Below are positions 42,001-45,000 of a DNA stretch of 64,000 nucleotides, one piece after another. Every line of letters begins with the position of its first letter. The first letter of the stretch is position 1. The stretch covers positions 5,384-69,383 of the forward strand of contig CAMENE010000006.1 in the NCBI GenBank assembly GCA_945928165.1. The letters run 5' to 3'. This DNA is from an uncultured Campylobacter sp. GTDB taxonomy: Bacteria > Campylobacterota > Campylobacteria > Campylobacterales > Campylobacteraceae. Made by a program: the position numbers.

Positions 42001-45000
42001 GATGTGAGGCTCAAAAATCAGCCCATTAAAAGCCAAGAATACGGCAACTACTGGGATGAGAGTAGGCGAGAGATCCCGCGCTTTAAAAAGCGAGATTTGG
42101 ACTTTGAGAAAATGCTAGGCAAAGAAAACGAGTATTATGAAAGGGCATACAAAGAAAACGAATACAAAAAAGCCGGCAAAGGCAGAATAAAAATGCACTA
42201 AATTCTAGCTAGGGAATTTTAGAATTCCCAAGCCTTGTGTCATCCCTCGACTTGATCGGGGGATCTCATCACAGAGATCCTCGGGTCAAGCCCGAGGATG
42301 ACATAGTAGGGAATTCTAGAATTCCTAAATCTAGAATTCCTAGCAAAAATCTAGAACTCCTAGTGGCTTTTTGCGTTTATATCATTTAAGAATTCTAGAA
42401 TTCCATATAGAGATCCTTGGGTCAAGCCCGAGGATGACAGGGAATTTTAGAATTCCTAGAGATTGCTTCGTCTCACTCACTCCTCGCAATGATGAGAATT
42501 CTAGAATTCCTAGATTGCTTCGCTTTTTCAAAGCATCGCAATGACGCAGGGAATTTTAGAATTCCCTTTGAAATTTTCAAAAAGAATACCCCATAACCCC
42601 AAGAAAAAAGAATTCCTAAAAATTTTATAAACTCTTAACCAAAATTTAGTTAGAATATATCCCAAAATTTTCAAGGAAATCTAATGCGTATCAAAGCACA
42701 ACATGCGCCGTTTATCGCGCGCAAAATAGCCTATGAGCTGCTAAAATGCGGCTTTGTAAGCCTAAAAAACGGCGGCGATGAAATCACGCAAATCGCTACT
42801 GATATCATCCTAAAAGACATAAACGCAGAACGCGCAATAGAAGAGCGCGCTAATGAGCTAATGGACGATAACGAGGGCGATATAGAGTTTATGCAAGTTG
42901 ACCGCAGGGCGATGTTTGGCATGATTAAAAAAAAGCTAGCTTCGCAAATGGGCTTTGAGCTAAATCACGATGAGCGCTACTCTCACATCTCGCACGATAT
43001 ATTAAATACTGCGTGGAAAAAAGACGCACTTGAGTACAACGTAAGCGAAAATAGAGTAAAAAATGTGATTTACTCTGCTATTGAGGGCTATCTTAAAAAC
43101 TTTGAAAAAGCGCAGCGTGCGGCTTTTGATGAGCTTGAGGGCCGAGAGAAGCTAGCTTATGGCTCGCCTGAGTATGAACTAGCCTTTGAAAAAGCCTACG
43201 AAGAACAACTAAGAAAGCACGGGATAATAGGATGAAAGCGTATATTTTTATTGAAGGTGGCGTGTTTTTGTGCGCTGATGCTTTGGGTGCTGGAGGGACT
43301 TATACTGGCGAGATGATTTTTAACACATCTATGACAGGCTATCAAGAGATTTTAACTGACCCAAGCTATGCTGGGCAGTTTATCGTCTTTACTATGCCAG
43401 AAATCGGCATTGTAGGCACAAACCAAAATGACATGGAAAGCTCTAAAATTCATGCTTGCGGTATGTTTGCAAGACGGCTAAATACCTTTGCTAGCAACTT
43501 TCGCTCTACTGCTAGTCTGGATGAGTTTTTAAAATCTCAAGGCAAAATCGCAGTTTATAACATAGACACAAGAGCCCTAACAAAGCTAATGCGTAGCCAC
43601 GGAGCTCAAAATATCATTGTCTCAACTGAGATTGGCGATAAAAACGAGCTAGAAGCCCGCCTAAAATCTTCTAAAAAAATCGCTGAAATAGACTTTGTAG
43701 CCGAGGTTAGCACAAAAGAGGGCTACACGCACAATAAAGGCGTGTGGAGCTGTGCAAAAGCTGCGTATGAAAGCCCAGAAAAACTAACAAAATGCGTAGC
43801 CGTGCTAGACTATGGTGTAAAGCAAAATATCCTAAACGAACTAGTTAGTGCTGGCATCGGCGTAAGGGTCTTTGCCCATGATACAAAGGCTGACGCGTTA
43901 ATAGATATGTTTAAAAAAGGCGATATTAACGGCGTGTTTTTAAGCAACGGCCCAGGTGATCCAGTTAGCCTTGGGGCGCAAATCGCAGAGATTAAAAAGC
44001 TAATAGAGGCAAAAATTCCTATGTTTGGCATTTGTCTAGGTCATCAGCTGCTCTCAAATGCCTTTGGCTATCCTACTTACAAGCTAAAATTTGGCCAGCA
44101 CGGCTCAAATCACCCAGTCCAAAATCTAATCACCGGTGCTGTGGAGATAACTAGCCAAAATCACAACTACAATGTCCCTGAGAGCATAGCTGAGGTGGCA
44201 AATATCACACACCGCAATCTTTTTGATAATACAATAGAGGGCGTGGCGTATAAAAATGCTCCGGTTTTCTCAGTCCAGCACCACCCAGAAAGTAGCGCAG
44301 GACCGCACGAGAGCGAGTATCTTTTTGCGCAGTTTTTAAAAGCACTTTAAGTTTTAAGCAATTCTAGAATTTTTAGGGAATTCTAGAATTTAGCCTATGG
44401 AATTCTAAATTTTATTCTAGGAATTTTAGATTTAGTCTTAGGAATTCTAGAATTCCCTGTCATCCCCCAGCTTGACTGGGGATCTCTAGAGGATCTCTAT
44501 ATGGAATTCTAAATTTATTTGTGATGAGATCCTAGGGTCAAGTTAGGGGATGACAGAAAACGCAAGAGGGGATGACACAAGACTTGGGAATTCTAGAATT
44601 CCTATACCAAAATTTCAAAAAGCATTTTATAATGAGTGGCGCATTTATTTTAAACATTATTATCACAGCATTTGTTCTTTCTTTTTCGCATTGTTCTTTT
44701 ATGTGTGGGGGCTTTAATGTCATTTTAGGCAGGCTTTGTGCTAGCCTTAGTAAGCTTAGCACGCTTGTAATGATGCTACTTTATCACGCTGGGCGAACCA
44801 CGGCTTATGCGTGCTTGGGGGCTGTTTTTGGCTATTTTGGTGCTGGGGTGATGAGAGATGCTAGTGCTAAGGGGCTAGTGTTTTTTGGTGCTGGTGTTTT
44901 GCTAGTCGTGCTTGGAGTCTCGCTTTTGTTTCGTGGCAAAATGCTGGCTTTTTTTGAAAACTCTTTTATCCAAGACAAAATCCTAGCCCTTGCTTTAAAG

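What the first reader, a model, noticed from the sequence alone, without database searches (positions are those of the whole stretch)
42239..42302. A REP/BIME-like family, GTCAT + 7-bp stem + CTTGA-type loop + stem + ATCTC, uses several unrelated stems
The same frame recurs with different but always self-complementary stems. TCCCCCA/TGGGGGA occurs at 1448-1476, TTGTCCG/CGGACAA at 2881-2909 and TTCTCGG/CCGAGAA at 5013-5041. CCCTCGA/TCGGGGG occurs at 42239-42267, CCTCGGG/CCCGAGG at 42274-42302 (reverse) and CCCCCAG/CTGGGGG at 13036-13064 (reverse). A sister form is GTCATTGCGAG...GCAATCTC, for example 37026-37053. Its loop contains two overlapping GCGAAGC heptamers, a sequence known to form an unusually stable DNA mini-hairpin. 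Other copies have a GGCTT-tgaaa-AAGCC inner hairpin. Units commonly occur as head-to-head pairs around an ATTTATTAAGCCTTGAAC-type spacer (55745-55850, 56245-56350, 56605-56720), which is the architecture of enterobacterial BIMEs. A conserved 5' tag plus a variable hairpin is what REP-associated tyrosine transposases (RAYTs) and IS200/IS605 TnpA enzymes recognise. No such gene lies in this window.
Basis: partly seen in the sequence, partly recalled or inferred. Interest (0 to 1): 0.7.

Follow-up and report, generated by a model that had tools for sequence, protein, structure and literature searches.

The report
Ssn-type tagged hairpin repeats (CGTC REPs)
These are copies of an already described, very widespread class of short tagged-hairpin repeats (CGTC-tagged REPs, the sites bound and cut by Ssn single-strand DNA nucleases) that have filled the spaces between genes in a pig-gut Campylobacter: a new host for a known element, not a new kind.

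Summary
GTCAT-N19-ATCTC occurs 14 times against 0.05 expected, GTCATTGCGAG 12 times against 0, and the stems covary. All strict units are intergenic and lie only between convergent or tandem genes.

The host is Campylobacter magnus or a very close relative. The repeats are not a new family. They match the CGTC/TGTC-tagged REP superfamily (Di Nocera 2013) feature by feature. These are the NTS/SRM hairpins that the 94-aa GIY-YIG nuclease SsnA binds and cuts as single-stranded DNA (Chenal 2025).

The hairpin at 42274-42302 is identical to hairpins directly flanking an Ssn-type gene in Sinorhizobium meliloti. The 'sister form' (CGTCATTGCGAG...GAAGCAATC) occurs in over 120 metagenome contigs of 29-67% GC and flanks Ssn-type genes in Flavobacterium.

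The arrays differ completely between strains that are about 96% identical in their genes. They are absent from sister Campylobacter species, so this is a recent lineage-specific expansion.

The REP/BIME reading is supported. The RAYT/IS200 reading is not, because published surveys found no Y1 transposase linked to this class and its known partner is Ssn. I could not search the rest of the genome, so an ssn gene in this species remains unshown.

Verdict: new member of a known kind, modest interest.

The parts
42239..42267 (+). Type-A unit: tGTC | AT-CCCTCGA | CTTGA | TCGGGGG-AT | CTC (one G.T pair)
   Evidence: folds as a 9-bp hairpin, -6.8 kcal/mol
42274..42302 (-). Type-A unit TGTC|ATCCTCGGG|CTTGA|CCCGAGGAT|CTC. 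Hairpin identical to those flanking an Ssn-type gene in S. meliloti. Matches the published SRM search string.
   Evidence: -10.1 kcal/mol, z -4.2
42239..42302 (.). Convergent (tails-inward) doublet with the 6-nt spacer ATCACA. It can fold as one long REPIN-like hairpin.
   Evidence: -20.7 kcal/mol, z -5.0, 0/200 shuffles as stable
42410..42438 (-). Type-A unit (CCTCGGG/CCCAAGG, one mismatch)
42459..42494 (-). Degenerate type-B unit (tag CATC instead of CGTC; core GAGTGAGTGAGAC)
42512..42546 (-). Type-B unit variant CGTCATTGCGATGCTTTGAAAAAGCGAAGCAATCT
1448..1476 (+). Type-A unit (CCCCCAG/TTGGGGG, loop CCCCC)
1505..1532 (+). Type-B unit (GTCATTACGAG-CGAAGCGAAGCAATCTC), preceded by CATCGCCGT x3 tag stutter at 1481-1509
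2881..2909 (+). Type-A unit (TGTCCGG/TCGGACA), preceded by a partial copy (tag, left arm, loop) at 2855-2880
2936..2964 (+). Degenerate type-A unit (CTCAT..., arms not complementary)
2974..3001 (+). Type-A unit, N18 variant; matches the SRM string
3024..3058 (+). Type-B unit (core GAGTGAGTGAGAC)
3249..3283 (+). Type-B unit
5013..5041 (+). Type-A unit (TCTCGGG/CCGAGAA); matches the SRM string; convergent doublet with 5048-5076
5048..5076 (-). Type-A unit
13036..13064 (-). Type-A unit (CCCCCAG/CTGGGGG, perfect 9 bp)
13094..13122 (+). Type-A unit (TGTCCAG/TCGGACA)
20540..20562 (+). Truncated type-B unit
20590..20618 (+). Degenerate type-A unit (CTCAT tag)
20671..20704 (+). Type-B unit with GGCTT-GAAA-AGCC inner hairpin
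   Evidence: -6.8 kcal/mol
20861..20882 (+). Short type-A-like unit; convergent doublet with 20889-20917
20889..20917 (-). Type-A unit (CCCCCGA/TCGGGGT)
20972..21003 (-). Degenerate type-B unit
29611..29639 (+). Type-A unit
29667..29695 (-). Chimeric type-A unit (arms from two stem classes)
36249..36284 (+). Degenerate type-B unit; convergent pair with 36344-36378
36344..36378 (-). Type-B unit
37026..37053 (+). Type-B unit, the 28-mer GTCATTGCGAGCGAAGCGAAGCAATCTC, also found exactly in 41 IMG/VR contigs
44459..44486 (+). Type-A unit (N18)
44526..44554 (-). Chimeric type-A unit, with a partial tag copy at 44555-44576
45352..45393 (+). Type-B unit (long core)
45421..45456 (-). Type-B unit
45516..45544 (-). 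Type-A unit
45578..45606 (+). Type-A unit with tail CCC; perfect 9-bp stem; matches the SRM string
45670..45706 (-). Type-B unit
55698..55720 (-). Truncated type-A unit
55755..55840 (.). Convergent pair of degenerate type-B units around the spacer ATTTATTAAGCCTTGAAC
56252..56345 (.). Convergent type-B doublet (56252-56285 +, 56310-56345 -)
56370..56398 (-). Degenerate type-A unit (GTCGT tag)
56611..56702 (.). Convergent type-B doublet (56611-56638 +, 56667-56702 -). Folds as one long hairpin.
   Evidence: -28.7 kcal/mol, z -6.35

Best explanation
The units are members of the CGTC/TGTC-tagged REP superfamily, also called NTS or Ssn-related motifs. Their anatomy is an unpaired (C/T)GTC tag, a hairpin whose stem begins with A-T and T-A, a C directly after the palindrome, and a short tail.

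Two classes coexist in this Campylobacter magnus-group genome.
- Type A: TGTC tag, 9-bp stem, 5-nt loop, several compensatory stem classes.
- Type B: a CGTC-ATTGCGAG...GAAGCAAT-C clamp around a hypervariable inner hairpin.

Shown elsewhere, inferred here: when the DNA is single-stranded (incoming transforming DNA, replication, repair), the tagged strand folds. A small GIY-YIG nuclease of the Ssn family binds the hairpin plus the 3' C and cuts a few bases 5' of the GTC tag. This shortens homology and modulates recombination around the flanked genes.

The element probably entered the lineage horizontally as a hairpin-ssn-hairpin cassette and expanded. The arrays now turn over by whole modules between strains. 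How new copies are made is unknown for the whole class.
For: Anatomy matches the published definition.
- The tag is TGTC in 35/36 type-A units and CGTC in 36/38 type-B units.
- The stem is 9 bp starting with AT, the loop is 5 nt and the tail is 3 nt. T2, C3, T5, A25, T26, C27 and C29 are invariant, G1 and A4 are 90% or more conserved, and the stem interior varies.
- The GTC tag and the C after the palindrome are the positions Chenal et al. found critical for SsnA cleavage and binding.
- The published SRM search string hits 4 units, including 42273-42303, against 0.06 expected.

Links to Ssn-type genes in other genomes.
- The unit at 42274-42302 differs from Neisseria wadsworthii NTSvar at 3 of 28 positions, by my own comparison with the sequence quoted. 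One of the three differences is a compensatory pair.
- Its hairpin is identical to hairpins placed 30 nt upstream and immediately downstream of a 94-aa GIY-YIG gene in S. meliloti pSymB.
- In 46 Ssn-encoding IMG/VR loci, 27 carry such tagged hairpins within 220 nt, and 17 carry them on both sides with tails toward the gene. The stems differ widely. L170 and L077 show the same arrangement.
- Type-B units flank Ssn-type genes in Flavobacterium beibuense and in a 27% GC contig.

Distribution fits the class.
- All 30 strict units are intergenic: 19 in convergent, 11 in tandem and 0 in divergent spacers.
- The arrays are present, absent or different at orthologous sites in strains 93-97% identical in genes.
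- Sister species have 0 units in 22 kb.
Against: - No ssn (GIY-YIG) gene was found in the window or in about 95 kb of non-redundant C. magnus-like DNA. I could not search the rest of the genome. About 19% of SRM-rich genomes in Chenal et al. lack an ssn homolog.
- The tail is CTC, not the usual CCA.
- Most units fail the strict SRM string, and type B never matches it.
- SsnA of N. meningitidis is sequence-specific as well as structure-specific. Five or more stem classes in one genome would therefore need several enzymes or a relaxed one.
- There is no excess of G.T over A.C mismatches on the tagged strand (11 against 20).
- Ssn is a nuclease. No mechanism of copy gain is known.
Confidence: 0.7

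Rival explanations
1. REP/REPIN elements are recognised and mobilised by a REP-associated tyrosine transposase (RAYT) or an IS200/IS605 TnpA encoded elsewhere in the genome.
For: - The general architecture fits: a conserved 5' tag, a variable hairpin, and inverted doublets that fold into long hairpins.
- Positions are strain-variable.
- Most of the genome was not searched.
Against: - The tag is CGTC/TGTC, not the GTAG that RAYTs cleave.
- Di Nocera et al. found that none of the Y1 transposase genes in CGTC-positive species are flanked by CGTC units.
- jackhmmer with E. coli RAYT, a TIRYT and IS608 TnpA found no Y1 ORF in the window or in any C. magnus-like locus. There was only one IS200-like ORF in 1.2 Mb of unit-bearing loci from other organisms.
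Confidence: 0.07
2. The hairpins act mainly at the RNA level, as 3'-end structures that stabilise or terminate transcripts of the upstream genes. Any protein partner is secondary.
For: - All units lie downstream of genes in convergent or tandem spacers, and none lie in divergent (promoter) spacers.
- Di Nocera et al. argue for this role in many REPs.
Against: - Units occur equally in both orientations, as inverted pairs.
- No T-run follows them.
- There is no G.U excess on the tagged strand.
- The invariant positions are the unpaired GTC and C, which an RNA stem-loop would not need.
- SsnA does not bind RNA.
- Rfam gives no match.
Confidence: 0.12
3. The hairpins are attachment or target sites for a site-specific recombinase of a phage or insertion sequence, as dRS3 is for a phage recombinase in Neisseria. 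Alternatively they are simply recombination hot spots with no dedicated protein.
For: - dRS3, the core of NTS, has been described as a target for a phage recombinase (quoted).
- Module boundaries between strains can fall inside a unit. At the MurB|DUF2972 spacer the left flank is shared but the stem, loop and right flank differ between L005 and L006.
Against: - No recombinase, phage or IS lies next to any array in the window.
- Most module boundaries coincide with the GAATTCTAGAATTC palindromes rather than with the hairpins.
Confidence: 0.08

Closest known systems
CGTC-tagged REPs, families CGTC-3/-4 (Di Nocera, De Gregorio & Rocco 2013, PMC3733652)
   Same: - Unpaired CGTC or TGTC tag.
- 9-bp stem starting with AT, 5-nt loop, 3-nt tail.
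- Subsets with different stems in one genome.
- Inverted dimers, often heterodimers.
- Location between tandem and convergent ORFs.
- No linked transposase.
- Uneven distribution among close relatives.
   Different: - The tail is CTC rather than CCA.
- The host is a Campylobacter. That paper does not mention Campylobacter; Sulfurovum sp. NBC37-1 is among its CGTC-positive species.
- Units are embedded in dense arrays, whereas clusters are called rare for this class.
- The family consensus figure is not held, so I could not assign a family number.
NTS / NTSvar / Ssn-related motifs and the SsnA GIY-YIG ssDNA nuclease (Chenal et al. 2025, PMC11893778)
   Same: - The GTC tag, AT-clamped hairpin and 3' C match the determinants of SsnA cleavage and binding.
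- The unit at 42274-42302 is 25/28 identical to NTSvar (my own comparison).
- The same hairpin flanks an Ssn-type gene in S. meliloti.
- Units are rarely inside genes.
- The host is a symbiont with a large expansion.
   Different: - No ssn gene has been shown in this species.
- Several stem classes and the type-B clamp form coexist.
- Type B is not captured by the published SRM string.
dRS3 repeats and Neisseria intergenic mosaic elements
   Same: Tagged hairpins alternate with other repeat modules in strain-variable intergenic arrays next to variable genes.
   Different: - The other modules are unrelated: a 16-bp GGAATTCTAGAATTCC palindrome and a roughly 100-bp element.
- The comparison with mosaic elements rests partly on my own knowledge.
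GTAG-tagged REP / BIME / REPIN with RAYT (E. coli, Pseudomonas)
   Same: - Short extragenic palindromes with an unpaired tag.
- Inverted doublets that can fold as one hairpin.
- Mosaic clusters.
- ssDNA-specific recognition of a hairpin by a small nuclease.
   Different: - A different tag.
- A different enzyme fold: HUH Y1 transposase against GIY-YIG.
- No RAYT association is known for the CGTC class.
Small dispersed repeats of Nostocaceae (Elhai et al. 2008)
   Same: Very short repeats with conserved flanks and compensatory stem variation, nested in other repeats. This is from memory and from citing papers.
   Different: - Different sequences and hosts.
- The paper is not held, so no direct comparison was possible. 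I set this lead aside once the host proved to be Campylobacter.

Membership tests
CGTC-tagged REP superfamily | Unpaired 5' tag CGTC (variants TGTC, CCTC) | tested here: met
   TGTC in 35/36 type-A units and CGTC in 36/38 type-B units
CGTC-tagged REP superfamily | Stem of 8-9 bp beginning with complementary A-T, T-A | tested here: met
   The 9-bp stem is 85.4% paired. Column pair 4/26 is AU in 28/29 and pair 5/25 is UA in 29/29. Type B has only a 5-bp ATTGC/GCAAT clamp plus an inner hairpin.
CGTC-tagged REP superfamily | Loop of 4-5 nt of a few major types | tested here: met
   Type-A loops are CTTGA, CCCCT/CCCCC and CTCCT. Type B departs, with cores of 4-34 nt.
CGTC-tagged REP superfamily | 3-nt unpaired tail, consensus CCA | tested here: inconclusive
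   A tail is present but reads CTC, with C27 and C29 invariant. The same hairpin in other hosts has CCA.
CGTC-tagged REP superfamily | Extragenic, between tandem or convergent ORFs; inverted dimers | tested here: met
   0 of 30 units in genes; 19 convergent, 11 tandem, 0 divergent. There are at least 10 convergent doublets.
CGTC-tagged REP superfamily | No flanking transposase gene | tested here: met
   No Y1 or other transposase ORF in the window or the C. magnus-like loci. Only about 95 kb was examined.
Ssn-related motif (SRM) / Ssn system | Matches the published SRM search string HGTCWYN(0-2)YYVSBRHN(0-5)WNVSBRGN(0-2)RNCYNB | tested here: inconclusive
   4 units match against 0.06 expected. 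Most type-A units miss by one or two degenerate positions, and type B never matches.
Ssn-related motif (SRM) / Ssn system | GTC upstream of the palindrome and C directly after it are conserved (determinants of cleavage and binding) | tested here: met
   T2, C3 and C27 are invariant and G1 is 90% or more conserved, while the stem interior varies. Determinants as described.
Ssn-related motif (SRM) / Ssn system | The same hairpin flanks an ssn (cd10448 GIY-YIG) gene somewhere | tested here: met
   Type A flanks such a gene in S. meliloti pSymB. Type B does so in F. beibuense L232 and in L248/L249.
Ssn-related motif (SRM) / Ssn system | The host genome encodes an Ssn homolog, typically flanked by the units | not testable with these tools
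   None in the window or the loci. Three homolog searches returned no Campylobacter protein. The genome collection scan did not return this species.
Ssn-related motif (SRM) / Ssn system | The tagged strand is cut as ssDNA by the cognate enzyme | not testable with these tools
   Needs a biochemical assay.
GTAG REP / RAYT (REPtron) | GTAG tag next to the hairpin | tested here: not met
   The tag is (C/T)GTC.
GTAG REP / RAYT (REPtron) | A RAYT gene flanked by the repeats | tested here: inconclusive
   None in about 95 kb. The whole genome was not searched. The literature finds none for this class.

The most novel reading that the evidence does not exclude
The C. magnus lineage recently took up at least two different Ssn/hairpin systems by horizontal transfer. 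Type A is identical to hairpins of high-GC Alphaproteobacteria, and type B is the form that flanks Flavobacterium ssn genes. The five or more stem classes would then reflect several co-resident Ssn specificities, or one relaxed enzyme. The hairpins, together with the lineage-specific GGAATTCTAGAATTCC palindrome, would act as junctions that drive module shuffling of intergenic arrays and restrict transformation in a naturally competent gut Campylobacter. The partial 'tag stutter' copies 5' of many units would be scars of cleavage and repair at the Ssn cut site. That would give the first hint of how this class gains copies.
Probability: 0.2. Interest if true: 0.55.

Novelty: new member of a known kind. 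Interest (0 to 1): 0.3.

Why it matters
- It places a dense, recently expanded population of Ssn-type tagged hairpins in a Campylobacter. Neither paper on this class mentions the genus.
- Sister species lack the repeats and strains differ at nearly every array. That makes a good natural system for asking how these repeats, which have no known transposase, multiply.
- Campylobacter is naturally transformable, so the transformation-restriction role shown in Neisseria can be tested directly.
- The repeats explain why this species assembles into short contigs in metagenomes.
- The coexisting stem classes could enlarge the catalogue of ssDNA nuclease specificities, if cognate enzymes exist.

Tried and rejected
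- Cyanobacterial small dispersed repeats were my first guess from the sequence style. I rejected it when the proteins showed the host to be Campylobacter. The Elhai 2008 paper is not held.
- The genome-collection scan with the stem-agnostic pattern TGTGTCAT-N19-ATCTCATCACA gave only 4 chance hits in unrelated taxa and none from this species.
- Exact look-ups of three window proteins failed. Going through the 90% cluster members of GyrB worked.
- A Pfam scan of 63 window ORFs through an alignment container shows only the 25 commonest families, so it cannot exclude a rare one. I replaced it with local jackhmmer searches.
- Three homolog searches did not surface a Campylobacter Ssn: GyrB, a recalled Ssn consensus and the F. 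beibuense Ssn. The family has over 8000 close clusters, and only the top 120 are listed.
- The abundant cluster P0353 turned out to be a 27% GC organism, not C. magnus.
- tblastn of the Ssn consensus against plasmids found no Campylobacter record.
- Rfam gave only a tRNA.
- Literature searches for the exact unit sequences found nothing.
- The test for G.T wobble excess on the tagged strand was negative.
- The metagenome scan meant to collect more C. magnus DNA returned mostly unrelated organisms. This was informative about type B but added only four C. magnus-like contigs.
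Full report
**1. The observation**

The sequence at 42239-42302 reads GTCAT-CCCTCGA-CTTGA-TCGGGGG-ATCTC, then ATCACA, then the reverse complement of GTCAT-CCTCGGG-CTTGA-CCCGAGG-ATCTC.
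- The frame GTCAT-N19-ATCTC occurs 14 times in the window against 0.05 expected.
- The 'sister' head GTCATTGCGAG occurs 12 times against 0 expected.
- Relaxing the spacing gives 17 type-A and 13 type-B strict units, plus about a dozen truncated, chimeric or mutated ones.

I collected 29 distinct type-A units from the window and from other DNA of the same species. The 9-bp helix (AT plus 7) is paired in 85.4% of cells against 75.8% in shuffles (0/500). It has 38 double-sided changes against 16 (0/500). Pairing collapses to 24-52% when the partner is slid. Frames that match with one mismatch inside genes pair at only 1-5 of 9 positions, which serves as an internal control.

T2, C3, T5, A25, T26, C27 and C29 are invariant. 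G1 and A4 are at least 90% conserved. The conserved parts are therefore the unpaired GTC, the A-T/T-A clamp and the C after the palindrome. The stem interior varies by compensatory swaps. 'Unrelated stems' overstates this, because the stems form a few C-rich classes and about a third of units are chimeras whose arms come from different classes.

**2. Host and setting**

The window carries dnaA-dnaN-gyrB, recA, enolase, AddAB-like genes and DUF2972.
- GyrB is 99% identical to a 631-member cluster that includes Campylobacter magnus. It is 82-86% identical to other Campylobacter species.
- The orthologous region of C. magnus GCA_030509935.1 (L005) and of two metagenome contigs (L006, L007) is 93-97% identical in genes.
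- All 30 strict units are intergenic: 19 in convergent spacers, 11 in tandem spacers and none in the six divergent spacers.
- YGTCAT occurs at 3.7 per kb in intergenic DNA against 0.48 per kb in genes.

The units sit in mosaics with two other elements. One is a 16-bp perfect palindrome, GGAATTCTAGAATTCC, whose 14-mer core occurs 31 times against 0 expected. The other is a repeat of about 100 bp.

**3. Turnover**

At orthologous spacers the arrays are present in some strains and absent in others.
- MurB|DUF2972 is empty in the window but holds about 400 bp of mosaic in L005 and L006.
- DUF2972|next gene holds a mosaic in the window where L005 and L006 have a Gp49/HTH gene pair.
- L006 carries extra modules relative to L005, bounded by the GAATTCTAGAATTC palindromes.
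- At one shared position the type-A unit has different stems and loops in L005 and L006. The left flank is shared and the right flank is not.
- Two sister species (GyrB 84-86% identical, GC 31-35%) have no units and no palindromes in 22 kb around dnaA-gyrB. C. magnus strains have 0.5-1.4 units per kb.

This is a recent, lineage-specific expansion with module-wise gain and loss.

**4. Identity**

A blastn of 42200-42560 against plasmids hit only the type-A hairpin, in Sinorhizobium and Shinella replicons. The exact type-B 28-mer is present in 41 viral contigs of 43-68% GC with unrelated flanks.

This led to Di Nocera et al. 2013. They define CGTC-tagged REPs as follows:
[quoted passage not shown] - subsets with different stems within a family;
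- inverted dimers, often heterodimers;
- location between unidirectional and convergent ORFs.

Here the tag is TGTC in 35/36 type-A units and CGTC in 36/38 type-B units. Only the tail (CTC rather than CCA) departs from the definition. That paper states that CGTC repeats are not associated with transposase genes. Y1 transposases exist in many hosts, including Sulfurovum sp. NBC37-1, but none are flanked by the repeats.

**5. Known partner of the class**

Chenal et al. 2025 showed the following.
- The Neisseria version is NTS, CGTCATTCCCGCGMAVGCGGGAATCYRG. NTSvar is CGTCATACTCGGGNNNNNCCCGAGTATC. Both are bound and cut, only as ssDNA and only on the tagged strand, by the 94-aa GIY-YIG protein SsnA.
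- Cleavage depends mainly on the three bases 5' of the palindrome. Binding depends most on the C just 3' of it. The cut lies a few bases upstream.
- ssn genes are typically flanked by such motifs, and 81% of genomes with more than 200 motifs encode an Ssn homolog.
- In N. meningitidis the system restricts integration of transforming DNA that carries the motif.

The positions conserved in the Campylobacter units are exactly those determinants. The published search string hits 4 units, including 42273-42303, against 0.06 expected.

**6. My own checks of the link to Ssn**

- The S. meliloti hit lies next to a 'GIY-YIG nuclease family protein' of 94 aa. The gene has CGTC-ATCCTCGGG-CTTGA-CCCGAGGAT-CCA 30 nt upstream and the inverted copy directly downstream. 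Stem and loop are identical to 42274-42302.
- The same hairpin occurs in 15 viral or prophage contigs of 58-71% GC, with the CGTC...CCA frame.
- A search for Ssn relatives in IMG/VR returned 51 loci. I screened the 46 that aligned over most of the protein. 27 have a tagged AT-clamped hairpin within 220 nt, and 17 have one on both sides with tails toward the gene. There are many stem types. L170 and L077 show the same arrangement.
- Type B (CGTC-ATTGCGAG, variable inner hairpin, GAAGCAAT-C) is found in over 120 metagenome contigs of 29-67% GC. It surrounds Ssn-type genes in Flavobacterium beibuense (L232, with the protein 100% identical to P0271) and in a 27% GC contig.

Both forms are therefore Ssn-associated elsewhere.

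**7. What is not shown**

No GIY-YIG or Y1 ORF exists in the window, in L005-L008 or in the C. magnus-like metagenome contigs L075, L097, L105 and L130. That is about 95 kb of non-redundant sequence. I could not reach the rest of the genome.
- The genome scan did not return this species.
- The homolog searches list only the 120 best of thousands of Ssn clusters.

The Ssn partnership in this species is therefore an inference. I put it at about 0.55, against about 0.9 for the family assignment. How the class gains copies is unknown in the literature as well.

**8. Structure**

- Single type-A units fold as predicted, at -6.8 and -10.1 kcal/mol.
- The 42239-42302 doublet can also fold as one long hairpin (-20.7 kcal/mol, z -5.0).
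- So can the 56605-56709 type-B doublet (-28.7 kcal/mol, z -6.35).
- The plain type-B 28-mer is not significantly stable under nearest-neighbour parameters.
- G.T pairs do not exceed A.C mismatches on the tagged strand (11 against 20). This gives no support to an RNA-only role.
- Rfam has no match.

**9. Verdict**

The REP/BIME analogy is right and the RAYT mechanism is not supported. The family is a new member, in a new host genus, of a described class whose partner enzyme was characterised in 2025. Interest is modest. It lies in the recency and density of the expansion, the coexistence of several stem classes and two architectures, and a few unexplained details such as the tag stutter and the companion palindrome.

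Noticed in passing
window, e.g. 2772-2785, 6334-6399, 42311-42324, 42390-42403, 62352-62443: The 16-bp perfect palindrome GGAATTCTAGAATTCC is the commonest repeat in the window. Its 14-mer core occurs 31 times against 0 expected, and the 12-mer ATTCTAGAATTC about 79 times. It is mostly intergenic and bounds the modules that differ between strains. It is absent from sister species and has only 5 single hits in 2.9 million viral contigs. Its function is unknown.
   Followed up: partly
window 1481-1509, 2855-2880, 3008-3028, 3218-3233, 4992-5012, 44555-44576, 45457-45493, 56695-56727: Partial copies of the tag plus a few stem bases ('tag stutter', for example CATCGCCGT x3 and GGAATTCCGTCATTGC x2) are stacked immediately 5' of many units. 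This is roughly where Ssn enzymes are reported to cut. They may be repair or slippage scars.
   Followed up: no
window 3068-3170, 3296-3330, 12918-13010, 20715-20830, 55860-55940, 56010-56100: A repeat of about 100 bp (TAGCGGGGTTTTAGGGGCGGCAGCCCCTAAGGGTTTAGGGCGTAGCCC...GCGAGCTAGGCTAGATTTATCTAGCC...AAGCGAGC) has internal palindromes. It is another module of the mosaics and is present or absent between strains.
   Followed up: partly
window 18545-18760 (also L006; absent in L005): A palindromic MITE-like insertion of about 215 bp has inverted ends AGGCTC...GAGCCT. It lies between the MatE and HD genes and is cleanly absent from the C. magnus reference contig. A similar-looking GC-rich block lies at 5120-5300.
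   Followed up: partly
window 14766-16883, 21023-23194, 12831-13146: Gene content differs from the C. magnus reference at the arrays. The window has an extra TonB-dependent receptor and a three-gene methyltransferase/ATP-grasp block. A Gp49/HTH pair in L005 and L006 is replaced here by a repeat mosaic.
   Followed up: partly
window 26000-30000: dnaA-dnaN-gyrB lies here and the cumulative GC skew reaches its minimum. The replication origin is probably inside the window. Unit orientation shows no obvious replichore bias, because units come in inverted pairs.
   Followed up: no
L009-L049, L050-L169: The type-B clamp CGTCATTGCGAG...GAAGCAATC(C/T) is conserved across organisms of 29-67% GC and in viral contigs, while its inner hairpin is hypervariable (4 to over 40 nt). 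The published SRM search string does not capture it.
   Followed up: partly
Genome-contig scan: A pattern with 4-5 exact copies in this 64-kb window returned no contig of this species from 185,579 representative genomes. Either the species is not represented there or its record is masked.
   Followed up: no
window 2208-2520: A long imperfect CAG/CAA-rich tandem array lies inside the ORF at 1709-2743 (a low-complexity Gln/Ser-rich protein segment). It is unrelated to the finding.
   Followed up: no
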